Below are positions 4,986-18,672 of a DNA stretch of 64,000 bases, one piece after another. The stretch's first letter is position 1. Each line of letters begins with the position of its first letter. The notes below the pieces were generated by a model that saw nothing but the letters and a program-made list of their open reading frames with translations, was not told the DNA's origin and did no database searches. This DNA is from Candidatus Krumholzibacteriota bacterium (GTDB lineage: Bacteria; Krumholzibacteriota; Krumholzibacteriia; JAJRXK01). The DNA lies in assembly GCA_963727455.1 (NCBI GenBank), contig CAVSGG010000005.1, positions 96,001 through 160,000 of the forward strand, read 5' to 3'. A program made the position numbers and the translations under genes.

Positions 4986-6359
4986 GTGAAGACCATCATC
5001 GAGCCGTTCAAGATCAAGTCGGTTGAACCCATCCGCATGACCACCAGGGAAGAAAGGGAGAAGATCCTGGCCGAGGCCGGCTGGAATCCTTTCTTGGTGC
5101 ATGCCGATGACGTCCTGATCGATTTGCTCACCGACAGCGGGACTTCCGCCATGAGCGCGAAACAGTGGGCCGGCGTGATGCAAGGAGATGAAGCATACGC
5201 CTGCAGTCGCTCCTTTTACCGTTTCGAGAAGACGGTGCAGGACATTATGGGATTCAAGTTCGTGATTCCCACCCACCAAGGGCGCGCGGCCGAGCGTATT
5301 CTCTTCAGCATTCTCTGCGACGAAAACTCGGTGGTGCCCAACAATACGCACTTCGATACCACGCGCGCGAACATCGAGTTTCGCGGGGCGAAGGCGATCG
5401 ACGTGGTCATCGACGAAGCGCACGTGCCCAGCGAGATGCATCCCTTCAAGGGCAACCTCGATCTCGAGAAGCTGCGGGGTGTCATTAAGAAGTACGGCAG
5501 GGAGCGTGTTCCCGCCGTGATGATCACGGTGACGAACAACTCCGGCGGAGGGCAGCCGGTGAGCATGGCCAACATCAAGGCGGTGCGCGAGGTCTGCGAC
5601 GAGTACAGTTTGCCGCTGTACTTCGACGCCTGTCGTTTTGCGGAGAACGCTTACTTCATCAAGTTGCGCGAAAAGGGCTATGCCGAAAAGTCGGTGAAGG
5701 AGATCGCCCAGGAGATGTTCTCCTACGCCGACGGTTGCACCATGAGCGCCAAGAAGGACGCGTTGGTGAACATCGGCGGCTTTCTCTGCACCAACGACGA
5801 CCTCCTGGCGCGCCAGGAACGCGATCTCTTGATTCTCACCGAGGGCTTTCCCACCTACGGTGGGCTGGCGGGGCGCGACCTGGAGGCGATGGCGCAGGGA
5901 CTGGAAGAGGTGCTCGAGGAGGACTATCTACAGTACCGCATTGCGAGCACGCGCTACCTGGGGGAACGCATCTCGGAGGCCGGAGTTCCCATCGTGCAGC
6001 CTCCGGGCGGTCACGCCATCTACATCGACGCCAAGGGTATGCTGCCGCACCTGGAGCCCCTGCAGTATCCCGGTCAAGCTTTAACTTGCGAACTGTATTT
6101 GGAGGGTGGTATCCGCGCGGTGGAAATCGGCTCGGTCATGTTCGCGTCCAAGGACGAGAAGACCGGCGAGGAGATTCCCGCGCCGATGGAGCTGGTGCGC
6201 CTGGCCATTCCGCGCCGGGTGTACACCCAAAGCCACATCGACTACGTGATCGAGGTCATTCTCGCCCTCAATGAGAGGCGCGATTCCATCCGCGGCATGC
6301 GCATCGTGGAGCAGGCGCCCTACCTGCGCCACTTCAGCGCCAAGTTCGAGTGGCTGTAA
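4986..6359 (+). CDS. tnaA: Tryptophanase (PLP-dependent beta-eliminating lyase)
   Basis: IDLLTDSGTSAMS, GDEAYA, SAKKD PLP-lysine motif. C-terminal LRHF carries His as in tryptophanase; tyrosine phenol-lyase has LRFF. Confidence 0.9.
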   Translation: MKTIIEPFKIKSVEPIRMTTREEREKILAEAGWNPFLVHADDVLIDLLTDSGTSAMSAKQWAGVMQGDEAYACSRSFYRFEKTVQDIMGFKFVIPTHQGRAAERILFSILCDENSVVPNNTHFDTTRANIEFRGAKAIDVVIDEAHVPSEMHPFKGNLDLEKLRGVIKKYGRERVPAVMITVTNNSGGGQPVSMANIKAVREVCDEYSLPLYFDACRFAENAYFIKLREKGYAEKSVKEIAQEMFSYADGCTMSAKKDALVNIGGFLCTNDDLLARQERDLLILTEGFPTYGGLAGRDLEAMAQGLEEVLEEDYLQYRIASTRYLGERISEAGVPIVQPPGGHAIYIDAKGMLPHLEPLQYPGQALTCELYLEGGIRAVEIGSVMFASKDEKTGEEIPAPMELVRLAIPRRVYTQSHIDYVIEVILALNERRDSIRGMRIVEQAPYLRHFSAKFEWL

Positions 6360-7586: not shown

Positions 7587-8213
7587 ATGTCTCGTGTCGT
7601 TGCTCTCGCCTGCCTTCTCGTGTTCTCGTGTTTGACCGCTTGTGGCAGGGAGCCCTCGAAAGAGCTGCTTGCCGCTCCCCCCGAGAGTGTCCGAAGCGCG
7701 ACGGATTCACTGATGGGCATGGATCCGGGGGAGACACTTCCCGCGGATCGCCGTAGGGCGCTCTCCGCGGATCCCGAGCTGGAGGAGTTCCTCTGGCGCG
7801 CGCAGTTTCTGTTGCGGCGGCTCTCTGTCCATCCGCCCACGCCCGAGGAGATGCAGCGAGCGGTGCGCGCGGGGCCAGCGGGCTTCGCCGATCTTGCGGG
7901 GATCTCACCTGCCGAACTCAGCGCGCGCATGGATACCTTGCGCTGGCAAGGGGTAGTTCTTTTGCAGCGTTACTCTGCGCTAGCGGCCTGCCTTGAAGAG
8001 GTCGAACGCGAGGAGGGGCCTCCCTCTGATCCGAGCGATGCAGTTGGATTGGTACAGGAGCTGAGATCGCAGGCCAAGAGACGCGGACAGCCGCGTCTGA
8101 ACCGCGAAGATCTGCCCTATGTCGCTTCCCTCATCCTGAGCGCCGCCACTGGTAATCCAGTTCTCTATTTCATTGGTTCGGCGCTGGCCACGTGCACTTG
8201 GAGACGCGGCTGA
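7587..8213 (+). CDS. Hypothetical lipoprotein
   Basis: AGGAG RBS, lipobox LTAC, hydrophobic C-terminal hairpin. Confidence 0.65.
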   Translation: MSRVVALACLLVFSCLTACGREPSKELLAAPPESVRSATDSLMGMDPGETLPADRRRALSADPELEEFLWRAQFLLRRLSVHPPTPEEMQRAVRAGPAGFADLAGISPAELSARMDTLRWQGVVLLQRYSALAACLEEVEREEGPPSDPSDAVGLVQELRSQAKRRGQPRLNREDLPYVASLILSAATGNPVLYFIGSALATCTWRRG

Positions 8214-8253
8214 GGCCACAAACCTCCGAGAAACTGGACTTGAAATTTCCTTC

Positions 8254-8284
8254 TTGACATAATCTATGGGGGGGGGGGTACATT
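8254..8284 (+). promoter_or_regulatory. Sigma70-like promoter with a G11 tract in the spacer
   Basis: TTGACA 8254-8259, G11 8268-8278, TACATT 8279-8284 (19-nt spacer). Confidence 0.55.
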
Positions 8285-8474
8285 GATCCTGTTTCACGGG
8301 GACTAAACCCGGCAATGAATTGGAATTTGCAGCGCGGCTCCTACCTTTGCGCTGCGGCTGCTTTGAGCAGCCCATGAATGATCAGAGTGGGACCAATGTC
8401 CACGGGCAGGAATAACCTCGTCACTGATTTTGCCTGCGCGCCGTACTCGGACCGTGAAACGACTGGAGATTGCA

Positions 8475-9629
8475 ATGCAAGCTGAGAGACTCCGCTTTCT
8501 CGTCATGCTCCTTCTTCTACTTTCCTCGAGTTCTGCCCTGGCTAACACCCTCACCGTGAGTAAGTGGGGAACCCCAGACTACCAGGTATTGCAGGAGGCG
8601 CTCGACGCCGCGGCACCTGGCGATACGATTCTGATCCAGGGTGGTACGTTCGCGGAGACCACGACACGCTACTGGGATAGCAGGAACCGGGAAGCAGTAG
8701 GATGGATCGATAAACCGCTCACGGTCATAGGCAGTGAGCAGGCCTGGCTGGATGGGCCGGATGGTACTGAGAACTATTGTCTCTTCACAAACCATGACTG
8801 TTCATTTCAAGGAATTCAGATCAAGGACGGTGGAGGATACGGCATTCTGATTTGGGCGGGCACGTCTAAAGTTCGGGATTGCAAACTTCAGGACCTCGGG
8901 GATGGAGTTTTCTGTGGAAATCCAGGGGCGCACGTGTCGGTTTCAGACAGTGAGTTCTATCGATGCTACTATTCGTGTATTGGCGTGACGATCAGCGCTA
9001 TCGCCGAGGCGGATAGTTGCTACTTCGAGGCCAGGACGGGTCCTGGTGCTGTAAGCAAGGCGTGCTATGTCTCATGGGATGGTAGCATCACTCTGTCCAA
9101 CTCGGAGTTCATCCGCTATGGGATGGTGGAGATCTATGGCCCGGGAATCGCCAATGTTACCGGGTGCACGGCACGCGACTTAAGAGTCTCCGCCCTTCTC
9201 GCTTGGAATGGAGGGGTGATCCATGCTTCCCAGTGTTCGTGTGCAGGCGGTGATTCACTTCCTGGGCCCAACGGAATGGAGGTTTCCAGCGGTGGTCGGA
9301 TCATCGCTGATAGCTGTAGGTTCGATGATATGACGTATGGAGCGGTGGGAAGCACTTCCGGATTTGTTGAGCTCCATGACTCTGAGATCACGAATTCGCG
9401 TCTGTACGCCGTGCTCTTGGATTCGTATACGTATGGGCCGAAAGTAACTCTCGATTTTACAGGCAACTGGTGGGGGACCACCGACTCCACCGCTATCGCA
9501 GCAAGTATCTATGATGGCCACGATGACCCTGTCAAAGACCCATTGGGTTTTGTTGAGTTCTGGCCGATACGGGATGTTCCCTTGCCGGCTCAGGAAGGCT
9601 CCTTCGGGAGACTGAAAGCACAGTACTGA
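8475..9629 (+). CDS. Secreted right-handed beta-helix (pectin-lyase-like) protein with C-terminal SFGRLKAQY motif
   Basis: Signal peptide, YQVLQEALDAAAPGDTILIQGGTF N-cap, beta-helix repeats, GNWWG motif. Confidence 0.85.
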   Translation: MQAERLRFLVMLLLLLSSSSALANTLTVSKWGTPDYQVLQEALDAAAPGDTILIQGGTFAETTTRYWDSRNREAVGWIDKPLTVIGSEQAWLDGPDGTENYCLFTNHDCSFQGIQIKDGGGYGILIWAGTSKVRDCKLQDLGDGVFCGNPGAHVSVSDSEFYRCYYSCIGVTISAIAEADSCYFEARTGPGAVSKACYVSWDGSITLSNSEFIRYGMVEIYGPGIANVTGCTARDLRVSALLAWNGGVIHASQCSCAGGDSLPGPNGMEVSSGGRIIADSCRFDDMTYGAVGSTSGFVELHDSEITNSRLYAVLLDSYTYGPKVTLDFTGNWWGTTDSTAIAASIYDGHDDPVKDPLGFVEFWPIRDVPLPAQEGSFGRLKAQY

Positions 9630-9640
9630 GGAGGTTTATC

Positions 9641-11539
9641 ATGAAGAGAAGTGGAGAGGCACTCGTGCTACCTCTCGCCATATTCTTCCTTTTTGCATTC
9701 ATCGAGAACTGTTACGCCACTGCCCGTTTCGCTGACAAGACATCCGAGATCAACATCACCTTGGCTGGCGGAACGGTGAGCGGGATCGCCACCTTCGATT
9801 ACGATGGCGATGGATACCTGGAGCTTCAGGTGTCCTACGATAGTTCTCATGGACAGTTCTTCGAAGGCAACACCACGTACAACGGATTTCCGCAATGGAC
9901 TAACGCGACGGTCGCCGCTTACCCCCAGAGCTCTTGGCCTCCAGCCCACTCCGCAACCCCTCTTCCCGCCGACTATGACAACGATGGAGATATGGACCTG
10001 TACGTCGGTTCAGCCTACAGCTACCAGCGATTGTATCGAAATAACGGAGACGGCACGTTTACCGAGGTCGGAGCGTCCGTCGGAATCCAGGATCCTGGGA
10101 TTTACGCAGGAAATGTGGCAGCGTGGGGAGACTACGACGGTGATGGCTGGAATGATCTAGTCATCGATGGGTACGGCGACATGCGTCTCTTCCACAACGA
10201 GGGTGCTTCGGGGACAGTGACCCTCACCCGAACCACCAATGTCCTTCAAGGCACCAGGCATGTGGCAATACCCGGAGATTTTGTTTGGATCGATCTCGAT
10301 CATGACGGTGATTTGGATCTCTTCGAGCTCCTTGCCGACTATGCCTTGCCCGCGACCTCCGACGTCTATATCAACAGCGGAGGTTCTTCACCAACACTAA
10401 CGACTTCCACGGAATCGAAGTGGGACGAGTTGAGGAGTCTATTCGCAAACGCAGTGAGTGTAGCCCAGGTCACGGACAACCGGTCAAGTGGTTATGCCGA
10501 TTTCTTTAGCTCTGCCTGGTTTGGAGGTATTATCGTCCGGACGAACGCTTCAGGTTCATATTTTGGAGGCCAGGTACCAGGCGGTGGGGGTGACACCTTC
10601 ATCCTAGACTACGATCTCGACGGAGCCTTGGATCTCTATCTGTACGGCGATGGTAGTCACGAAGCCGTGCTGATGCGAAATGTGGGAGGCGCGAGTTTCA
10701 CCGATGTGAGCAGCAACGCGCAGCTCAATGCTCTGGGTATTACGCGTGGTGTCGCGGCGGATTTTGATGGTGACGGCGACTTGGACCTATTCCAAGGTGA
10801 TCCCGTGGGGAATACTCGGCTTTTCATGGAGAGCTTCGACACGAGTGTTTGTACCAACTGTGCCCCCGGTGCTGACAATCCGTACAACCATTTCTTGGAG
10901 GTGCGCCTCGAAGGGCACCCGGTGGGACAATACCATGTCGACAGGACCACGAATACTGATCTGATTGGCACCTACTTGGAGGACCAGGAGACAGGAAAAG
11001 GCCAGTGGGTACAAGGTCATAGAAGTACCAGCACCGGGCCATCGGTTCCGATCGTCTTTGGAGCGGGTCAGGCGAGTGAATTCTCTTTGACGGTCAAGTG
11101 GCCCAATGGCGTGTCCACGGACTTCGAGAACCTGGATGTCAATCAGATCGTCACCATCGAGGATCAAAGCGTTCCCTACGTCGAGTCGAGTACGGTGTCT
11201 GGAGTCAAGGTCTACGACCAAGATACCATCAATCTCGTCTTCGAATGGGACACGGTGGGGCCCTCCAGCGAGGACGAAATCGAGATCTCGGTGGCATCGG
11301 GCTCACCCGGTCAGAACTGCGGTGTCTATGCTACCACGATCAGTTCGCAGGATCTGGACGTAACGCACACCGTCACACAGACTGATCTCAATACCTACCA
11401 TCACACTCTGACCTGGGAAGATCAGGTGTGCTACCAAATCTGTAAGCTCCAGTACGTGGTGCATTCGAAGAACACCGTAGCGGAATCCTGGAGCGACACG
11501 AAGCTCATTACCGTCAAGAACTGCATAAGAGGTCTCTGA
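9641..11539 (+). CDS. CRTAC1/ASPIC-UnbV-like FG-GAP repeat secreted protein
   Basis: Repeated DYDxDGxxDL motifs, LYRNNGDGTFTEV, and an UnbV-like FGAG...VKWPNG segment. Confidence 0.85.
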   Translation: MKRSGEALVLPLAIFFLFAFIENCYATARFADKTSEINITLAGGTVSGIATFDYDGDGYLELQVSYDSSHGQFFEGNTTYNGFPQWTNATVAAYPQSSWPPAHSATPLPADYDNDGDMDLYVGSAYSYQRLYRNNGDGTFTEVGASVGIQDPGIYAGNVAAWGDYDGDGWNDLVIDGYGDMRLFHNEGASGTVTLTRTTNVLQGTRHVAIPGDFVWIDLDHDGDLDLFELLADYALPATSDVYINSGGSSPTLTTSTESKWDELRSLFANAVSVAQVTDNRSSGYADFFSSAWFGGIIVRTNASGSYFGGQVPGGGGDTFILDYDLDGALDLYLYGDGSHEAVLMRNVGGASFTDVSSNAQLNALGITRGVAADFDGDGDLDLFQGDPVGNTRLFMESFDTSVCTNCAPGADNPYNHFLEVRLEGHPVGQYHVDRTTNTDLIGTYLEDQETGKGQWVQGHRSTSTGPSVPIVFGAGQASEFSLTVKWPNGVSTDFENLDVNQIVTIEDQSVPYVESSTVSGVKVYDQDTINLVFEWDTVGPSSEDEIEISVASGSPGQNCGVYATTISSQDLDVTHTVTQTDLNTYHHTLTWEDQVCYQICKLQYVVHSKNTVAESWSDTKLITVKNCIRGL

Positions 11540-11540
11540 G

Positions 11541-12410
11541 ATGCTAAGAAAACTCTCATTTCTGTTGATTATTTCTGTCATCACCTCCGCAGTCTTCATT
11601 CCTGCATCGGACGCCGTCGATGGCGTTCTCAGCTACGACTCGTCTGCGGAGAGTCCGCTGTACCTACGAGCCTTCGATTTGCCCGCTGGGGCAGGGGTCA
11701 GCGGAGCCACTCTCTACATAAATGACAGCATGGCGCCGCCAGTTGCGGCCTACCTGCTGCCTTCAGACTTGTCAGGGTTACCTGACTGGGAGCGAGCCAG
11801 CAAATCGAGCATCAGTCCCATGGTGTCGGATGGTGATCTGCTTTCAGTCGACCTGAGCATGACCGCAGCGGAGAACCGAAGAAGAGTCTGGTTGGCCGTT
11901 CAATTCAACCATGGCGATGATTCTCCGGCTGAGGGCCGCGGAGGTGGCCCTGCGATGGGGTACTATGCAAGGCCTTGCCATGTGGGAGATCAGCTCATTT
12001 CGGCCGATGGGGGCAAGAGCTACGACTATCTCAGCTCGAAACTGAGTCTTGCCATGGATATCACGGTCGATTCCTCCAGCAGCGCTCAAGTCGGTTCTCT
12101 CGCGTCGATGCGAGCCAGCACGGAAACATCTCGTCAGCCGGTTGGGTTGCATGCCGCACCTAATCCCTTCAATCCAAGAACTGAGGTGTTCTTTGATCTT
12201 CCCGCCGCCGGTAGGGTCAGCCTCATCCTCTACGATTCAAGGGGTCGAAGAGTGAGGACTCTGATCCACGGCGACCGCTCCGCCGGTACCCAACGCGTGA
12301 GCTGGGATGGGCGCGACGAGAATGGTCAGAGAGTCGCTTCAGGAACGTTCTTTGCGCGTCTCGTGGCGTCTGGCATCACTCAGAGTACGCGACTCGTTTT
12401 GATCCAATAG
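11541..12410 (+). CDS. Secreted protein with FlgD-Ig/T9SS-type C-terminal domain
   Basis: Signal peptide; PNPFNPRT...YDSRGRRVRTL...WDGRDENGQRVASGTFFARL. Confidence 0.85.
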   Translation: MLRKLSFLLIISVITSAVFIPASDAVDGVLSYDSSAESPLYLRAFDLPAGAGVSGATLYINDSMAPPVAAYLLPSDLSGLPDWERASKSSISPMVSDGDLLSVDLSMTAAENRRRVWLAVQFNHGDDSPAEGRGGGPAMGYYARPCHVGDQLISADGGKSYDYLSSKLSLAMDITVDSSSSAQVGSLASMRASTETSRQPVGLHAAPNPFNPRTEVFFDLPAAGRVSLILYDSRGRRVRTLIHGDRSAGTQRVSWDGRDENGQRVASGTFFARLVASGITQSTRLVLIQ

Positions 12411-12486
12411 GAACGGTCAGAGGTTTCAGCGGCCCAGAAAGTGCGGCCGGCTCCGATTGGGGTCGGCCGCCCCCTTGATCGGCAGC

Positions 12487-13323
12487 TCACCTTCCCGCAG
12501 GGTCTAATTGTCCGTAGAGCCGTATGGCTTCGTTGAGGAGCTGCACGGTGCTCGTGAAGCGCTGCTTGCCCAACGCTTCCAGCACGTCCCGGGTTCTTTG
12601 GATGTACCAGTCCCGGCGGTTCTCAAAATCGAAAAGACGGTTCTTTCTGGCCCATATCGTGGTGGCGTTCTCGGGCTTGTCGCCGAAACCATTCGCCACC
12701 GCGTTGCGGAGCGCAGTCTCGTACTGTGCTTTGCTTCCCGTGGGGTCCTGGCCTCGGGCCACCGTGAGCAGGTAGTTGGATTCGGTGATGGCCGCCTCGG
12801 CGGCGCTGATCTCTTTGTGGTCGGTGGGGGAAAGCGTTCCGTCCTGCTTCATGTATTTCCGGGCCTGCTCGAGGGCCTGCATCGTCAGGTTGATGAGAAT
12901 CTCGAAGCGTTCCTGATAGGTGGAATTCAGGGCGAGTAGTCCGTAGCCTACCGTCCCCACCGGAGTTCGGGCGATGTCCAGCGCATTCGGGGCAGCAAAT
13001 CTGTAAAGAGCCTGCTCGCACTTCAGGAGTTCGGACTGGTAGTTGTTTGCGTTGATCTCGGAAATTCTGTTGAAGAACTCGTATTGCAGTCGGTCGGTTA
13101 CGCTGAAGACGAGTTGGTCTTCCGTGCTCCTGTCCACGCGCATGCCCGGTACGATGCCCTGCGTGGCGAGAGTATCCGCAATGGCGGATTCGTCCTGACC
13201 ATTGCCCTCCAGGCTGTACCGGTAGCCCTGACTCGAGCTGCAGGAAGCGATGACGGCGATGATCAAGAGTGGTGCCACAAGCGTGGCAATGCGCTTCTTG
13301 GGATAAGAGCGAGCAAGACTCAT
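12487..13323 (-). CDS. Hypothetical helical lipoprotein
   Basis: Lipobox IASC; starts 9 bp downstream of gatD on the same strand. Confidence 0.7.
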   Translation of the reverse strand: MSLARSYPKKRIATLVAPLLIIAVIASCSSSQGYRYSLEGNGQDESAIADTLATQGIVPGMRVDRSTEDQLVFSVTDRLQYEFFNRISEINANNYQSELLKCEQALYRFAAPNALDIARTPVGTVGYGLLALNSTYQERFEILINLTMQALEQARKYMKQDGTLSPTDHKEISAAEAAITESNYLLTVARGQDPTGSKAQYETALRNAVANGFGDKPENATTIWARKNRLFDFENRRDWYIQRTRDVLEALGKQRFTSTVQLLNEAIRLYGQLDPAGR

Positions 13324-13332
13324 ATCAATCGC

Positions 13333-14721
13333 TCACTTCCATACCTTCCCAAAGAAATTTTGGATCTCCGGCACCCCGCCCTGGAACACGAGGTAGCCGT
13401 CGTGCGGTTCGCGTTCGGTCATTTCGCCGGCCAGGGGCGTCTTCATGAGTTCTTTGACTTTCTCCGGGTCGTTGGGGTGCATCCCCAAAGCCCAGCCCAG
13501 CTTGATGTAGGCGACCTCGGGCAGCATGTTTGCCAGGGGCACCACGCCCAACTCCAGAATCTCGCGACCCGTCTCGTAGACGTGCATCTGCACGAAGCCC
13601 CACAGGGTCTGCAAGGTCATGAACACGCACACTCCCGCCTCGCGAGCTTTGCGCAGTGCGGGATAGACTCCCCGGTTGACGTGCCCCAGGCCGGTTCCGG
13701 CGATCACGATTCCCTTGTAACCACAATCGATGAGCGATTCCAGAATATCGGGCTGCATGTTGGGATAGTAATAGACCAGGCTGACTTTCTCCTGGAAGGT
13801 CGCGTGCACTTCCGCCTCGCCGTTCTCGCGGCGATGTTGGTAGTCCTCCTTGAGCGGCGTGATGAGCCCGTCTTCCACCATGGCCAGGGGAATGTCTCCG
13901 ATGGTGCGGAAGGTGCTGCGATAGCTGCTGTGCATCTTGCGCACCCGCGTGCCGCGGTGCAGAAGATTGTAGCGGTCGCTGGTGGGCCCGAACATGCAGA
14001 CCATCACCTCGGCGATGTCGCCGGTGGCTGCGGCCCAAGTTGCATTGATGAGATTCTGCGCCGCATCGGAGGAAGGTCGATCGCTCGAGCGCTGGCTGCC
14101 CACCATGACGATGGGCACTGGCGGCGACTGCACCATGAACGACAGCGCCGCCGCGGTATGGTGCATGGTGTCGGTACCGTGGCCGATCACTACGCCCGCA
14201 TATCCGTCTCGGATCGCCTCGCCGGTGCGCTCCGCCAGCACAAGATACTGCTCGGGACCCATGTTCTCGCTGAACACGCCAAAAAGTTTCTCGGTCTCCA
14301 GATTGCAGATGTCCGCCAGCTCGGGAACCGATCCATAGAGTTCCCCGGGCGAGAAAGCGGGGATGACGGCGCCGGTGCGGTAGTCCAGGCGGGAGGCGAT
14401 GGTTCCCCCGGTACCGAAGAGTTTCACGCGCGGCTTGTTCTCACTGACGGGAAATTCCTTTTCGGGAATTTGATAGTGCGCTTCACGGTACCCAATCTGC
14501 TCTAGCTTCTCGATGGTGTCGTGCCGCAGTCCGATGTTGTAGCCGGTATTGAGCTTCAGCACGATGTGCTCGGCGTCGGCAGTTTCGCTGCGGGGCAGAA
14601 GCAGGCCCTCGAAGCTACCGGTTTTCGTGGTGGCGCGCACCTCGCACCACACGCCCACTCCGAACTTCTTCATGAGCCCCTTGCAGGGATCGCGGTAGCC
14701 CTTGAAGCGCTCCTCGTTCAT
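13333..14721 (-). CDS. gatD: Glu-tRNA(Gln) amidotransferase subunit D (archaeal type)
   Basis: N-terminal EGLLLPR..HIVLKLNTGYNIG domain absent from plain asparaginases, TGGTIASRLDYRTGAV, HGTDT, GSQRSSDRPSSD, RKMHSSYRSTF. Confidence 0.93.
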   Translation of the reverse strand: MNEERFKGYRDPCKGLMKKFGVGVWCEVRATTKTGSFEGLLLPRSETADAEHIVLKLNTGYNIGLRHDTIEKLEQIGYREAHYQIPEKEFPVSENKPRVKLFGTGGTIASRLDYRTGAVIPAFSPGELYGSVPELADICNLETEKLFGVFSENMGPEQYLVLAERTGEAIRDGYAGVVIGHGTDTMHHTAAALSFMVQSPPVPIVMVGSQRSSDRPSSDAAQNLINATWAAATGDIAEVMVCMFGPTSDRYNLLHRGTRVRKMHSSYRSTFRTIGDIPLAMVEDGLITPLKEDYQHRRENGEAEVHATFQEKVSLVYYYPNMQPDILESLIDCGYKGIVIAGTGLGHVNRGVYPALRKAREAGVCVFMTLQTLWGFVQMHVYETGREILELGVVPLANMLPEVAYIKLGWALGMHPNDPEKVKELMKTPLAGEMTEREPHDGYLVFQGGVPEIQNFFGKVWK

Positions 14722-16781
14722 CGCGATTCTCCCAGCAGTAGGGGGCGCAGGCGCTGCAGCAGGTCTTGGGGATCCAGTTTCCCCAAATACTTTGGCATGA
14801 TCTCTCCCATGGCCCAGCGCAGGCGCGCATCGGGATCATCCTCACGCAAGCTAGCGGCTTTTGCCTCGAGCTGCCGCAGAAGCTCGGTCAGCGGCGGCTC
14901 GCTTCCGTTGCCAGATTCAAATGTGTGCAGGATTTCGTCGGCTCCGCGCTGCGGTTCGCACAGCAATCGGTCGAAAGTGGCCTCCGTCGCCTCGAGCCGC
15001 ACGCGTCCGGAGCTGAGTGCCTCGACCCAGGGCGTGAGCCTGGATACCGTCGGCAGTTCGTCAATCCCGCCGCTACGGCGATGATGGGGGATTCTCTTTT
15101 CCAGTGCATAGGCCACGCGTCGCGCGACTTCGCCTTCTCCTGGATGCAGAGCGTCGAAGAGCTCGCACCAGGGCGCGTCGCTGAGGCGGCGACACAGTGC
15201 GAAGGGCAAGCCCAGCTTTGCAAAGCGCGCTTCCTTCTCCCAGGGACGCTCTGTGCTGAGAGCGCTGACGCGCTCGATCAAGCCATCCCCCAAGGGCACC
15301 GGTGGGGTGTCGGTATCGGGATACATACGGTCGGCCCCGGGCAGGATGCGCTCGAAGCCGTTCGTGCCGCCGACGAAGGCCTGGCGCGTCTCGGCCGGCA
15401 CCCCGACCAGGCAATCTTGCGCCCGCAAGAAGACCTCCTGTACCGCGGTCTGCAGATCGCGCTTCTTTCCCCACAATACGAGGATCGCGTCGCCCGACTC
15501 CGCGCGCAGCGCAGTGCGCAGTTGCTTCCAGTGCGCGTGTTCGAAGCCGTAGCCCTCGATGTCGCTGTGGATGAGGAAGGGCCGCGAGGTGAGGCAGGCA
15601 ATCACGCGCACCCGGTCGGCGAATTCGTTGGCCAGGGTGAGACCGGGTTGAGTGCGACGTCCGAGCAGGCCACCAAATCCCTGGAGGCGTACCGCGACCG
15701 CTTCCTCGTCCCGCTCGAGGCAGTCGCGCAGGGGAGTGAAGTCGCTGGACGAGAGAATTCCGGTCGCGTCCAGCACCTTCGCTGAATCGTAAACGTCGTC
15801 GCTGCTCTCGGACAGGGCGAACATCTCGTGTGTTACCCCGCGCCGCAGGAGTTCGGCCCGTACTCGAAGCAAATTGAGCTGCCGATAGGCTTCGATGTGT
15901 ACGAGTTGGGGAAGACCGCGGTGATAGTGCACGCCCTTGATCTCCACGCGCCTTCCGCCGGCCACCGAGACGTTCACGTCCTGCCGTGCCGCACCCGCCC
16001 CCCGGCGTACGCGGCCACTGGCGCGCGTGGTGCGTGCGAGCAAACGAGCGCCCGCCTGCAACTCGAGGGGGGAGTACAGTTCGGGCTCGGTCACGACTTC
16101 GGTCAGGGGCACCCCGAGCCGGTCGGTGCGGAAGGTGACGCGGTGTCCGATGTCGCTGATTTCGCGACAGGAATCCTCTTCGAGCGAGAGCTGTCGAATG
16201 TGCAGCTCACGTTCGATCTCGAGCTGTGGCTCGACGAAGGGAATCGCGCCGCCCAGTCCCACCATCGCCGTGCGTTGAAAACCGGTGGGAATGGAACCGT
16301 CGAGGTACTGCTTACGCATCACGTGCAATTCGGAGACGAGATTCAAATCGAAGAGCCGGCTCACTTCCAGGGCGATCTCGACCGCCTCGAGGTTGATCGG
16401 AAAGGGAGGGGTGTCGTCGATTTCGTAGGTGCAGACAGTGCCGCGCTCCAATTGGTAGACGATCTCCTTGCGCGTTTTGAATTCCATGAGCGCGCAGCCG
16501 TCATACTCTCCTAGTTCACTCAGGGTAGGGCGCATGTGCCGTAACACTTCGGCGTCGAAGTGGTCCACGAACACACCGGAGGGGCAGCGGCAGAAGAGCT
16601 TCTTCTTCGTGTCGAGCTGTTGATGAACCTCGAGGCCGGAGAGGAATCCCAGCTCCCGGTAATCGGCCTCGCTCAACCCGCCGAAGTCGCGATCGGGGAA
16701 ATCGAGGACCGCCTCGGCGCGCGGATTGACGTCGCTGGGCGGCTTCAGATTGGGTTGGTTGATGTCGCGCTCTGAGGCCAA
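14718..16781 (-). CDS. gatE: Glu-tRNA(Gln) amidotransferase subunit E (archaeal type)
   Basis: GLEVHQQLDTKKKLFCRCP, HVMRKQYLDGSIPTGFQRT, LEEDSCR, DRLGVPL, RQDVNVSV..RVEIKGV, an insertion domain, and LPGADRMYPDTD. Overlaps the gatD start by 4 bp. Confidence 0.93.
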   Translation of the reverse strand: MASERDINQPNLKPPSDVNPRAEAVLDFPDRDFGGLSEADYRELGFLSGLEVHQQLDTKKKLFCRCPSGVFVDHFDAEVLRHMRPTLSELGEYDGCALMEFKTRKEIVYQLERGTVCTYEIDDTPPFPINLEAVEIALEVSRLFDLNLVSELHVMRKQYLDGSIPTGFQRTAMVGLGGAIPFVEPQLEIERELHIRQLSLEEDSCREISDIGHRVTFRTDRLGVPLTEVVTEPELYSPLELQAGARLLARTTRASGRVRRGAGAARQDVNVSVAGGRRVEIKGVHYHRGLPQLVHIEAYRQLNLLRVRAELLRRGVTHEMFALSESSDDVYDSAKVLDATGILSSSDFTPLRDCLERDEEAVAVRLQGFGGLLGRRTQPGLTLANEFADRVRVIACLTSRPFLIHSDIEGYGFEHAHWKQLRTALRAESGDAILVLWGKKRDLQTAVQEVFLRAQDCLVGVPAETRQAFVGGTNGFERILPGADRMYPDTDTPPVPLGDGLIERVSALSTERPWEKEARFAKLGLPFALCRRLSDAPWCELFDALHPGEGEVARRVAYALEKRIPHHRRSGGIDELPTVSRLTPWVEALSSGRVRLEATEATFDRLLCEPQRGADEILHTFESGNGSEPPLTELLRQLEAKAASLREDDPDARLRWAMGEIMPKYLGKLDPQDLLQRLRPLLLGESR

Positions 16782-16891
16782 AGCTGAGTGACTCCTGTAC
16801 AGAGGGGGCTGCCATCCGGCTTACCGGCCAGGCGCTTCAATATAGCAGCTGCCTGGTCGGGTGAAAGCTCTCCCTGCCCTTGGGCCCGTCT

Positions 16892-17377
16892 CTAGCTGCC
16901 GAAGATCCCGTCCAGCTGCAGACAGTGCTCATCGCGGACGAAATCTTGCCGCAGGTGCTTGGTCTGTTCTAGCGGCACCGGCATGTAGCGGCCGCTCCCG
17001 CGGGCGTAGACCGTGCCTGCCTCGTCTTTTATCCACGACTCCGTGTCGAAGACCCGCCGTCGGCCGCTGACCATCCGGGCCACCGCGACGCAGTGGGTCT
17101 TTGGCGGCAGCGGCTTCAGCAAGCGGACGGTGAACTCCGCCGCGAAGCAGGGCTTGTCCGAGCCCAAAATCGCGGCCCAGGTCATCACCTCGTCCAGCAG
17201 GGTCGCGATGATGCCACCGTGGATGACTTGATTCCAGCCGGCGAATCGCTTCTCGGCCACGAAGGGCAGCTCGATCCGCTCGCCGACTTTGAAACTGCGC
17301 GCGCGGAAGCCGTCGGGATTGGCCTCCCCGCACACGTAACAGGAGCGGCTCCAGGGAAGGGGGATTCGTTCGTTCAC
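16892..17377 (-). CDS. PaaI family hotdog thioesterase
   Basis: CYVCGEANPDG and HGGIIATLLDE motifs. Confidence 0.85.
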   Translation of the reverse strand: MNERIPLPWSRSCYVCGEANPDGFRARSFKVGERIELPFVAEKRFAGWNQVIHGGIIATLLDEVMTWAAILGSDKPCFAAEFTVRLLKPLPPKTHCVAVARMVSGRRRVFDTESWIKDEAGTVYARGSGRYMPVPLEQTKHLRQDFVRDEHCLQLDGIFGS

Positions 17378-17436
17378 GCTGGCTCTCCTTCGCCAAGAAT
17401 CGAAGCGTTCACGGTATCAGAGTCCTCATCGCGCTT

Positions 17437-18672
17437 CTAGATTTTCCAGTACCTGCGGCGGCGGTGTAGCTCGCCGCAGATTACGGCCCACAATACGACC
17501 ACCCCCAGTGCATACAGAAGCGATCCCCAGAGCGGCCCGGCCCAGCTCGCAAAGTACTGTTCGTAGAGGAAACGCTTGATAGCCTGTCCGGTGTGTGACC
17601 CGAAGGGCACGCGCAGGTACACGCTGGCGGTCGCGAGCAGGCTAGAGAAGAAGAAGGCGGTGATGGCATTGCGGCCGTACCACACGAAGGGCTGCACGAG
17701 TTTGACGGGCCCGCGCCTATCCAACCACGCCCGCAGAAGGGCGAAGACCAAAAGCGCCGCGCCGGCCGTTGCCACTACGTAACTCGGTGTCCACAGGCGC
17801 TTGTTCCAGTCGATCCAGTGGCGGCTCAGGACTCCAAGAGCGATGAGACAGCACGAAGAGAGAATCCAACGCAGCAAGAAAGGTGGCAGCGCCCCATCCT
17901 TGGCGCCCTCTTCCCCGTGTATGGATGCGAGCAAGGCACGGCCGGTAGCAACTCCCAAAAGCGATGTGACCACAGCGCCCAGGGTGCTCACGAGGCCTTC
18001 GGGATCGAAGGCCCACAGCAGGACGCCGGTCTTGGGATCACTCACGTGGAGCAGGCAGTGGATCCCGAAGACTCTGGTGTCGACATAGGCGCACAGGTTG
18101 GAGTAGACCGCGTGGTAGCTGCCGTCGCTTGCGCGTAGTGGAATCGAGAGATCCGGCATGCCGAAGCCCGGGATGCTGACGCGCGTGAGGAGCAGACCGT
18201 ATCCCAGAAGGAGCACGAGGGAGAGCGCGAACATACTGCGCCAACGAGGCAAGTACAGCTGGACCAGGCTGGCCAAGAAATACACCAGTCCGATGCGAAA
18301 GAGTACGCTGGGAATCCGCGCGTCCAACAGCGCGTGAGGACTCGAAAGGCCACCCGAGAGGAGAATCCCGAAGCGGTTCTGCACCAGACCCAGGCCCACG
18401 AGGATCGCGCTGCGACTGAGGACGTGTCGTAGAAGTCTCCGCCGATTCTCTCCCTCTTGCAAACGACGCTCGAAGGAAAGCACCAGCGAGATGCCGACTG
18501 CGAAGAGAAAGAAGGGAAAGATCAGATCGGTGAAGGTGAGGCCGTTCCAGGGCGCGTGCCGCAACTGCGCAAACTGCGTCGCCTCACCCCAGTGCCCGGG
18601 GTTGTTCACCAGCAGCATGGCGGCCACCGTCGCGCCGCGAAAGACGTCGAGCGAGGGGAGGCGGTGGCTCAT
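17437..18672 (-). CDS. Heparan-alpha-glucosaminide N-acetyltransferase-like membrane protein
   Basis: SLDVFRG, MLLVNNPG, HAPWNGLTFTDLIFPFFLF, DPEG and NKRLWTPSYV motifs. Confidence 0.88.
   Translation of the reverse strand: MSHRLPSLDVFRGATVAAMLLVNNPGHWGEATQFAQLRHAPWNGLTFTDLIFPFFLFAVGISLVLSFERRLQEGENRRRLLRHVLSRSAILVGLGLVQNRFGILLSGGLSSPHALLDARIPSVLFRIGLVYFLASLVQLYLPRWRSMFALSLVLLLGYGLLLTRVSIPGFGMPDLSIPLRASDGSYHAVYSNLCAYVDTRVFGIHCLLHVSDPKTGVLLWAFDPEGLVSTLGAVVTSLLGVATGRALLASIHGEEGAKDGALPPFLLRWILSSCCLIALGVLSRHWIDWNKRLWTPSYVVATAGAALLVFALLRAWLDRRGPVKLVQPFVWYGRNAITAFFFSSLLATASVYLRVPFGSHTGQAIKRFLYEQYFASWAGPLWGSLLYALGVVVLWAVICGELHRRRRYWKI

What the first reader, a model, noticed from the sequence alone, without database searches (positions are those of the whole stretch)
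13333..16781. Archaeal-signature GatDE amidotransferase operon in a bacterial chromosome
Seen: full-length gatE and gatD overlapping by 4 bp, in a clearly bacterial context (murB, lexA, exbBD, dnaX). Their composition looks like that of neighbouring genes by eye. Known: GatDE is classically described as the archaea-specific Glu-tRNA(Gln) amidotransferase, while bacteria use GatCAB or GlnRS. Inference: an old inter-domain transfer giving an archaeal-style Gln-tRNA route, or a repurposed enzyme. Diverged motifs (RKQYLDGSIPTG versus archaeal RKxVIDGSNTxG) suggest a distinct bacterial clade. Such homologues may already be annotated in MAGs.
Basis: partly seen in the sequence, partly recalled or inferred. 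Interest (0 to 1): 0.8.

Follow-up and report, generated by a model that had tools for sequence, protein, structure and literature searches.

The report
Bacterial GatDE operon beside GlnRS
This uncultured bacterium carries an intact, well-conserved copy of GatDE, the enzyme pair that reviews call archaea-only for making glutamine-charged tRNA. The same pair is common in many bacterial phyla, and this genome already has the direct enzyme GlnRS, so the open question is what GatDE does here.

Summary
gatE (14718-16781, minus strand) and gatD (13333-14721, minus strand) overlap by ATGA. Both score above NCBIfam's GatE and GatD equivalog cut-offs and far above GatB or plain asparaginase. All catalytic residues are kept, and the pair is under purifying selection.

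It is neither a chimera nor a recent import. All 3 congeners carry the pair in the same neighbourhood. GatE was found in 97 of 121 sampled genomes of the phylum and in at least 594 stretches of bacterial species genomes. Databases already name it GatE, while reviews still say archaea-only. This scan has reported the same thing on other genomes.

The genome has GlnRS, AsnRS and four AsnB-family genes. It has no GatCAB, and its single GluRS carries the discriminating-type arginine. Across 171 genomes, GatDE is never robustly the sole route to Gln-tRNA or Asn-tRNA. Even so, 89 of 91 GlnRS-bearing genomes keep at least one amidotransferase, mostly GatDE. The non-discriminating GluRS signature follows GatCAB, not GatDE.

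Best reading: an active Glu-tRNA(Gln) amidotransferase working beside GlnRS. A distinct role is not excluded. Verdict: an ordinary member of a large, under-discussed bacterial GatDE clade.

The parts
14718..16781 (-). gatE: the tRNA-dependent kinase/transamidase subunit, 687 aa, TTG start. It has about 38 residues N-terminal to the start of the archaeal alignment.
   Evidence: NCBIfam NF003107 468 bits and TIGR00134 414.9 bits, both over cut-off; GatB 112 bits at most. Aligns to P. abyssi GatE 1zq1_C over residues 39-679 (298 bits) and to M. thermautotrophicus 2d6f_C (295 bits); best GatB chain 65.6 bits. His53, Glu201 and Glu228 align to the Mg-binding His15, Glu157 and Glu184 of the M. thermautotrophicus enzyme (my count on the alignment; residue roles from a passage of PMC2330236) and are invariant in 78 of 78 aligned GatE. 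Relatives of 687-693 aa cover 97-100% of the query.
13333..14721 (-). gatD: the asparaginase-type amide-donor hydrolase subunit, 462 aa.
   Evidence: TIGR02153 499.1 bits and NF003217 493.4 bits, both over cut-off. Pfam GatD_N, Asparaginase and Asparaginase_C. 1zq1_A 392 bits and 2d6f_A 375 bits, against 145 bits for the best plain asparaginase. Motifs GTGGTIAS (residue 103), HGTDTM (181), QRSSDRPSSDA (210) and RKMH (261) are kept.
14718..14721 (-). ATGA overlap of the gatE stop and the gatD start (translational coupling).
   Evidence: In congener G102 the same junction has no stop and the two frames are fused.

Best explanation
The locus encodes a functional two-subunit GatDE of the large bacterial GatDE clade. 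It is native to this lineage. GatD would release ammonia from Gln or Asn, and GatE would phosphorylate and then amidate Glu on tRNA(Gln), giving Gln-tRNA(Gln). In this genome it is the only tRNA-dependent amidotransferase and works beside GlnRS rather than in place of it. Most likely it converts Glu-tRNA(Gln) that the single GluRS still makes, acting as a parallel or clean-up route.

Shown: identity, intact catalytic residues, purifying selection, vertical residence, and the co-occurrence pattern.

Inferred: the substrate, that GluRS supplies it, and the physiological role.
For: Family scores and alignments to solved GatDE. Mg ligands invariant in 78 of 78 aligned GatE; GatD Thr/Thr-Asp/Lys motifs kept.

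dN/dS against congener G102, which also lacks GatB: 0.129 for gatE and 0.019 for gatD, at dS about 0.6.

The insertion and tail regions that bind tRNA in archaeal GatE still align, to residue 679. Relatives carry Pfam PF02938 and PF02637.

In the phylum sample, at least one amidotransferase is present in 118 of 121 genomes, and in 89 of 91 GlnRS-bearing ones. In the window's own family all 9 genomes have GatE or GatB, and the 2 without GatE have GatB. From knowledge of the two enzymes, the only activity GatCAB and GatDE are known to share is Glu-tRNA(Gln) amidation.

tRNA(Gln) and tRNA(Asn) here have U1-A72, while tRNA(Glu) and tRNA(Asp) have G1-C72, so a first-base-pair rule could still separate substrates.
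Against: GlnRS is present (773.5 bits). The only GluRS has Arg at the T. thermophilus Arg358 position. Changing that Arg to Gln made the T. thermophilus enzyme non-discriminating (PMC2978374 passage).

Non-Arg GluRS copies were seen in 13 of 17 GatB-bearing genomes and in 0 of 10 readable GatB-lacking ones. A dedicated Glu-tRNA(Gln) source therefore follows GatCAB, not GatDE.

GatDE without GlnRS and without GatB occurs in only 2 of 121 and 1 of 50 genomes. All three are fragmented or of unknown completeness.

Archaeal GatDE reads A1-U72 (PMC2330236 passage), but tRNA(Gln) here is U1-A72.

No tRNA-Gln gene lies near gatED in any of 60 loci.
Confidence: 0.6

Rival explanations
1. Repurposed enzyme. 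Bacterial GatDE keeps the kinase/amidase chemistry but serves another task than bulk Gln-tRNA(Gln) supply. It could act on another aminoacyl-tRNA or substrate, or be a conditional route (for instance one that uses Asn as amide donor when Gln is scarce).
For: It is never the sole route in 171 genomes. GlnRS accompanies 83 of 97 GatE-bearing genomes but only 8 of 24 GatE-lacking ones. GatDE-only genomes show only Arg-type GluRS (0 of 10 with a non-Arg copy). A clade-wide change lies next to the catalytic core (RKQYLDGSIPTG, 77 of 77), and its Tyr and Pro match GatB's RKNYFYPD(L/C)PK(G/N)YQ. tRNA(Gln) lacks the archaeal A1-U72 pair.
Against: No candidate alternative substrate or partner emerged. 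The only conserved neighbour of gatE is gatD, in 74 of 81 loci. AsnRS is present in 120 of 121 and 48 of 50 genomes and AsnB-family genes are present here, so an Asn role is not needed. The tRNA-binding regions are retained. G108, in the same family, seems to live with GatCAB, an Arg-type GluRS and no GlnRS, which weakens the Arg rule in this family. Genomes in the samples are related, so the counts are not independent.
Confidence: 0.25
2. Decaying relic of an older indirect pathway, no longer needed since GlnRS arrived.
For: It is redundant on paper with GlnRS. One congener (G107) has gatD in two frames.
Against: dN/dS is 0.02-0.26 in five comparisons. Catalytic residues are invariant. GatE is present in 97 of 121 genomes of the phylum, and in 90 of 105 high-quality ones.
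Confidence: 0.04
3. Assembly chimera, contamination, or a recent import from an archaeon.
For: The genome is 6.68% contaminated by the marker estimate.
Against: The contig is 593 kb and carries dnaX and 13 tRNA genes. G+C is typical of the window. All 3 congeners have the pair, with 82-87% DNA identity running into both flanks in G102 and G107. Logan contigs of two runs bridge the gatD/downstream, gatD/gatE and gatE/upstream boundaries; one of those runs may be the source sample. The 80 nearest genomic relatives are all bacterial, and the best archaeal identity is about 40%.
Confidence: 0.01

Closest known systems
Archaeal GatDE (Methanothermobacter thermautotrophicus, PDB 2D6F; Pyrococcus abyssi, PDB 1ZQ1)
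   Same: Same two subunits. Same domain order, including GatD_N and the regions that align to the GatE insertion and tail. Same Mg ligands and the same Thr/Thr-Asp/Lys motifs.
   Different: Alignment scores are 295-392 bits against those chains; about 40% identity to the one archaeal GatE I could align (Natrinema). The motif next to the core is clade-specific: RKQYLDGSIPTG against RK.V(I/V)DGSN..G. The host tRNA(Gln) is U1-A72, not A1-U72 (PMC2330236 passage). It coexists with GlnRS, which archaea lack according to the review PMC9499178 (passage). Gene order is gatE then gatD, with an ATGA overlap.
Bacterial GatCAB
   Same: GatE and GatB are paralogues with the same kinase/transamidase core. 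Both enzymes amidate Glu-tRNA(Gln). In this phylum they look partly interchangeable, since 118 of 121 genomes have one or both.
   Different: GatE scores only 112 bits on the best GatB model. The amide-releasing subunit is an asparaginase fold, not an amidase. In the stretch I lined up with the GatB 3-10 turn, bacterial GatE has the same length as archaeal GatE (my reading; the element is described in PMC2811023). Non-Arg GluRS copies go with GatCAB, not with GatDE.
Bacteria that keep an amidotransferase beside GlnRS and AsnRS (Bdellovibrio, Deinococcus, Thermus with GatCAB)
   Same: An apparently redundant amidotransferase is kept together with both direct synthetases (abstract of PMC4206432 in the listing).
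   Different: In those cases the enzyme is GatCAB and the explained role is tRNA-dependent Asn synthesis. Here the enzyme is GatDE and AsnB-family genes are present.

Membership tests
GatDE (Glu-tRNA(Gln) amidotransferase, subunits D and E) | GatE catalytic cradle domain with Mg-binding His/Glu/Glu | tested here: met
   Pfam GatB_N 144.8 bits. His53, Glu201 and Glu228 align to His15, Glu157 and Glu184 of 2d6f_C (roles from PMC2330236). Invariant in 78 of 78.
GatDE (Glu-tRNA(Gln) amidotransferase, subunits D and E) | GatE-specific insertion (AspRS-like/GAD) inside the core, and a YqeY-like tail | tested here: inconclusive
   The GatB_N match spans residues 49-499 for 270 model positions, so a large insert is present. 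The alignment to 1zq1_C runs through it and on to residue 679. However, Pfam PF02938 and PF02637 did not reach E 0.001 on this protein; they are recorded for many close relatives.
GatDE (Glu-tRNA(Gln) amidotransferase, subunits D and E) | GatD = GatD_N domain plus type I asparaginase fold with the Thr nucleophile and Thr-Lys-Asp triad | tested here: met
   Motif positions; residue roles from a PMC2330236 passage.
GatDE (Glu-tRNA(Gln) amidotransferase, subunits D and E) | The two genes are linked and conserved together | tested here: met
   ATGA overlap. gatD lies next to gatE in 74 of 81 loci. An in-frame fusion occurs in G102.
GatDE (Glu-tRNA(Gln) amidotransferase, subunits D and E) | Amidates Glu-tRNA(Gln) made by a non-discriminating GluRS | not testable with these tools
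   Indirect evidence only. The sole GluRS has the discriminating-type Arg, which speaks against a dedicated supply.
GatDE (Glu-tRNA(Gln) amidotransferase, subunits D and E) | Archaeal setting: no GlnRS, tRNA(Gln) with A1-U72 | tested here: not met
   GlnRS 773.5 bits. Both tRNA(Gln) genes have U1-A72 and A73. This is a feature of the classical host setting, not of the protein fold.
GatB (of GatCAB) | Scores over the GatB equivalog cut-offs | tested here: not met
   112 bits against a cut-off of 338; 103 bits against 314.8.
Stand-alone type I asparaginase (AnsA) | Asparaginase fold without a GatD_N domain or a GatE partner | tested here: not met
   GatD_N is present. GatD equivalogs score 499 bits against 372 bits for the asparaginase subfamily model. 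The GatE partner is adjacent.

The most novel reading that the evidence does not exclude
Bacterial GatDE is not a stand-in for the archaeal Gln-tRNA route. It is a distinct, GlnRS-associated activity found across many bacterial phyla. One possibility is a dedicated scavenger of Glu-tRNA(Gln) mischarged by an otherwise discriminating GluRS. Another is an amidotransferase with a different aminoacyl-tRNA substrate. Either would be marked by the invariant RKQYLDGSIPTG change beside the active site.
Probability: 0.25. Interest if true: 0.7.

Novelty: new member of a known kind. Interest (0 to 1): 0.38.

Why it matters
Reviews and primary papers still state that GatDE occurs only in archaea (PMC9499178 passage; PMC2811023 abstract; PMC2330236 'archaeal signature protein'). 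Evolutionary scenarios for Gln-tRNA formation and for the absence of GlnRS in archaea rest on that statement.

This window is one ordinary example of a bacterial GatDE clade that databases already label, so the locus itself is not a discovery.

The useful part is the pattern around it. GatDE is kept under selection in genomes that have GlnRS, AsnRS and an Arg-type GluRS, and it does not replace GatCAB where GlnRS is missing. That turns 'why would a bacterium keep GatDE?' into a question that a few enzyme assays could answer.

Tried and rejected
- Expression: no RNA holder is listed for window 12000-18000, so nothing can be said about expression.
- Archaeal outgroup: the 80 loci kept from genome contigs were all bacterial, and the protein search listed only close bacterial relatives. 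The plasmid collection gave one archaeal gatE (Natrinema). It is in two frames and its record has no relatives in the genome tool. With that single fragment and 4 GatB, the tree puts it with GatB on long branches at 71% support, and the tool warns about this join. I draw no conclusion on origin or direction of transfer.
- Third partner gene: clustering all ORFs of 80 loci plus the window found nothing conserved beside gatD. The next real family occurs in 11 loci.
- tRNA-Gln linkage: 0 of the 60 loci scanned, out of 80.
- Plasmid carriage: 3 plasmid records matched. Two are mycoplasma gatB, and none is a bacterial gatE.
- Promoter and terminator scan of 12300-17600: 0 promoter-like and 3 terminator-like sites, not above the shuffles.
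- GatDE as Asp-tRNA(Asn) amidotransferase: not needed anywhere sampled. AsnRS is in 120 of 121 and 48 of 50 genomes, and the two without it have GatB.
- GatDE as the sole Gln route: only G156, G168 and G021 fit. They are 87-89% complete or of unknown completeness, and none has a GlnRS fragment. Two sit in a family where 46 of 49 genomes have GlnRS.
- Literature: three searches found no paper describing bacterial GatDE. Sheppard and Soll 2008 (PMC2366055) is not held, so I did not see it. I did not ask for supplementary files.
- Structure and complex prediction: not run, because GatD with GatE is a textbook pair.
Full report
**What is there.** Two ORFs on the minus strand fill the stated interval exactly. 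gatE is at 14718-16781 (687 aa, TTG start) and gatD at 13333-14721 (462 aa). They share the four bases ATGA.

NCBIfam places both above the curated equivalog cut-offs:
- GatE: NF003107 468 bits (cut-off 456) and TIGR00134 414.9 bits (cut-off 319.55).
- GatD: TIGR02153 499.1 bits (cut-off 324) and NF003217 493.4 bits (cut-off 310).

Pfam sees GatB_N in GatE and GatD_N + Asparaginase + Asparaginase_C in GatD. Against solved structures the best matches are the two archaeal GatDE entries. For GatE these are 1zq1_C at 298 bits (aligned 39-679) and 2d6f_C at 295 bits, against 65.6 bits for the best GatB. For GatD they are 1zq1_A at 392 bits and 2d6f_A at 375 bits, against 145 bits for the best asparaginase.

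**Is it intact and in use?** A passage of PMC2330236 names three Mg-binding residues as essential in the M. thermautotrophicus E subunit: His15, Glu157 and Glu184. By my count on the alignment they align to His53, Glu201 and Glu228 here. All three are invariant in 78 of 78 aligned GatE. GatD keeps GTGGTIAS, HGTDTM, QRSSDRPSSDA and RKMH.

Against the congener G102, dN/dS is 0.129 for gatE and 0.019 for gatD at dS about 0.6. Four further comparisons give 0.11-0.26 (gatE) and 0.11-0.21 (gatD), but there dS is 1 or more and near saturation.

**Is it native?** The window lies on a 593-kb contig (C5) of a 3.46-Mb, 18-contig genome that is 88.85% complete and 6.68% contaminated. All contigs have G+C of 0.60-0.63, and the locus is not compositionally odd.

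GatE is present in 3 of 3 genomes of the same genus, 6 of 8 other genomes of the family, and 97 of 121 sampled genomes of the phylum that are at least 85% complete. Among high-quality genomes it is in 90 of 105. DNA of congeners G102 and G107 aligns at 82-87% identity through gatE, gatD and into both flanks.

Logan contigs of two DNA runs labelled wetland metagenome bridge the downstream-gene/gatD boundary, the gatD/gatE junction and the gatE/upstream boundary. One of these runs may be the source sample, so this is weak independent support. A chimera or a recent import is therefore excluded for practical purposes.

I did not determine the host's phylum name. Its GatE groups with those of records titled Candidatus Eisenbacteria and Krumholzibacteriota (97% SH-aLRT), next to a Gemmatimonadota clade.

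The 80 kept are all bacterial MAGs. They come from Gemmatimonadota, Eisenbacteria, Krumholzibacteriota, Acidobacteriota/Aminicenantes, Myxococcota, Ignavibacteriota, Bacteroidota, Phycisphaerae, Calditrichota, Cloacimonadota and KSB1.

The protein database returned 8000 clusters at E of 1e-20 or below, which is the cap. The named ones among the best 120 are called 'Glu-tRNA(Gln) amidotransferase subunit GatE' of Gemmatimonadota.

I built a quick tree of 77 bacterial GatE: 76 of the 80 loci plus the window. Four loci were dropped for lack of a frame of at least 600 aa. The tree shows two well-supported bacterial groups (99% and 97%). Phylum labels are clustered: 20 changes against a shuffled mean of 39.8.

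It reads RKQYLDGSIPTG in 73 and RKQYLDGSIPAG in 4 of 77 bacterial sequences, against RKIVIDGSNVSG, RKQVIDGSNTGG and RKIVVDGSNTTG in the three archaeal sequences I could see. Its Tyr and Pro coincide with GatB's RKNYFYPD(L/C)PK(G/N)YQ.

Earlier notes of this scan describe the same operon in other bacterial genomes and reach the same 'large bacterial clade' verdict. My searches confirm that independently.

**What the literature says.** Three full-text searches found no paper on bacterial GatDE. The texts I read say the following:
[quoted passage not shown] - 'archaeal signature protein' (PMC2330236, passage).

**The pathway inventory of this genome.**
- No GatB: the only match to the GatB model is GatE itself.
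- No GatA over cut-off: one amidase at 177 bits against a cut-off of 481.
- GlnRS is present at 773.5 bits.
- AsnRS is present at 463.4 bits.
- One bacterial GluRS at 538 bits.
- One bacterial AspRS at 718 bits.
- Four AsnB-family genes; no AsnA.

Two of the three congeners also lack GatB, so its absence here is probably real.

Both tRNA(Gln) genes have U1-A72 and A73. tRNA(Asn) has U1-A72, while tRNA(Glu) and tRNA(Asp) have G1-C72. This is the bacterial pattern, not the archaeal A1-U72 that M. thermautotrophicus GatDE reads (PMC2330236 passage).

**Co-occurrence.** In the phylum sample (121 genomes; table), with E = GatE, B = GatB and Q = GlnRS:

| Combination | Genomes | Note |
|---|---|---|
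| E+ B+ Q+ | 48 | |
| E+ B+ Q- | 12 | |
| E+ B- Q+ | 35 | includes this genome |
| E+ B- Q- | 2 | G156 and G168, 89% and 87% complete; no GlnRS fragment |
| E- B+ Q+ | 6 | |
| E- B+ Q- | 15 | |
| E- B- Q+ | 2 | |
| E- B- Q- | 1 | |

AsnRS is present in 120 of 121.

I also took 50 of the 80 GatE-bearing genomes from other lineages, choosing mostly those with long loci and leaving out 30. Among these, GlnRS is over cut-off in 47, GatB in 27, both in 25, and neither in 1 (G021). AsnRS is in 48, and the two without it have GatB.

These counts give four results:
- GatDE is never robustly the only way to Gln-tRNA or Asn-tRNA.
- At least one amidotransferase is kept in 118 of 121 genomes, and in 89 of 91 that have GlnRS.
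- Beside GlnRS the single survivor is GatDE 35 times and GatCAB 6 times. Without GlnRS, GatCAB is kept in 27 of 30.
- GlnRS accompanies 83 of 97 GatE-bearing genomes but only 8 of 24 GatE-lacking ones.

The genomes are relatives, so none of these counts is a statistical test.

**GluRS type.** Aligned to T. thermophilus GluRS (1j09), the genome's GluRS has Arg369 at the Arg358 position (numbering). Changing that Arg to Gln made the T. thermophilus enzyme non-discriminating (PMC2978374 passage).

As an internal control I read the same column in GluRS copies from 28 genomes of the phylum (27 gave a match).
- Among 17 GatB-bearing genomes, 13 have a GluRS with Ser, His, Asn, Asp or Ala there, either as the sole copy or as a second copy. 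Three (G068, G092, G108, all of the window's family) showed only an Arg copy. One (G094) has a fragmentary second copy that I did not read.
- Among 12 GatB-lacking genomes including this one, 10 were readable and none has a non-Arg copy. G058 gave no match, and G097's match did not cover the column.

The non-discriminating signature therefore follows GatCAB and not GatDE.

One observation cuts the other way. G108 is 93% complete and belongs to the same family. It has GatB, no GlnRS even at a lenient threshold, and a single Arg-type GluRS 65% identical to this one. If its GlnRS is truly absent, an Arg-type GluRS of this family must charge tRNA(Gln).

**Neighbourhood.** Apart from gatD (next to gatE in 74 of 81 loci), no gene family is conserved around gatE; the next real family occurs in 11 loci. 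No tRNA-Gln gene lies within about 6 kb in 0 of 60 scanned loci. Local neighbours are a hotdog thioesterase, an acyltransferase-like membrane protein, a hemerythrin-domain protein and an unassigned 278-aa ORF. None points to a function.

**Reading.** The proteins are GatD and GatE by every sequence test I could run, and they are maintained by selection. The near-universal retention of one or the other amidotransferase is best explained by the one activity the two enzymes are known to share, amidation of Glu-tRNA(Gln). The 9-of-9 pattern in the window's own family points the same way. I therefore take that as the mechanism, operating beside GlnRS (confidence 0.6).

The Arg-type GluRS, the failure of GatDE to stand in for GatCAB where GlnRS is missing, the GlnRS association and the invariant clade-specific motif keep a distinct role open (0.25). 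Relic (0.04) and artefact or recent import (0.01) are contradicted by the data.

**Verdict.** The locus is an ordinary, vertically inherited member of a large bacterial GatDE clade that databases annotate and the literature overlooks. The scan has found this before on other DNA. What remains interesting is the general question of what GatDE does in GlnRS-bearing bacteria.

Noticed in passing
L143 (congener G102), gatE/gatD junction; also protein P0023: In a genome of the same genus the gatE frame runs into gatD with no stop, giving an in-frame GatE-GatD fusion (open frame 1245 aa). A 969-aa database protein also carries GatD_N + Asparaginase + GatB_N domains.
   Followed up: partly
L139/L144 (congener G107), gatD: gatD matches in two frames with a break near residues 353-359. 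This is a frameshift or an assembly error.
   Followed up: no
own genome contig C3: 44861-46882 and 54823-56431 (outside the window): Synthetase and tRNA genes are paired crosswise. gltX is followed on the same strand by tRNA-Gln(CUG), and tRNA-Glu(CUC) lies about 370 bp upstream of glnS on the opposite strand.
   Followed up: no
window about 8200-12480: A block of secreted-type proteins (beta-helix, FG-GAP/ASPIC, FlgD_ig C-terminal domain) lies between flanks that are adjacent in congeners G102 and G107. It is a variable insertion next to the gatED neighbourhood.
   Followed up: partly
L102 (G108, same family): This genome has GatB, no GlnRS even at E 1e-5, and a single GluRS with the discriminating-type Arg. 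Either GlnRS is missing from a 93% complete bin, or the Arg358 rule fails in this family.
   Followed up: partly
L145-L147 (Natrinema thermotolerans CP031304.1, 987-kb replicon): The archaeal gatE on this replicon matches the family model in two different frames (model positions 2-319 and 317-621) and has no CDS in the PLSDB table.
   Followed up: no
L017, L018, L023, L026, L042: A tRNA-Ser(GCU) gene lies upstream of gatE, within about 2.5 kb, in 5 of 60 scanned loci, all of them Gemmatimonadota records.
   Followed up: no
window 4986-6359 (+): A tryptophanase-family gene (NF009709 719.6 bits, cut-off 285) lies a few kb from the locus. It is unrelated to the finding.
   Followed up: no
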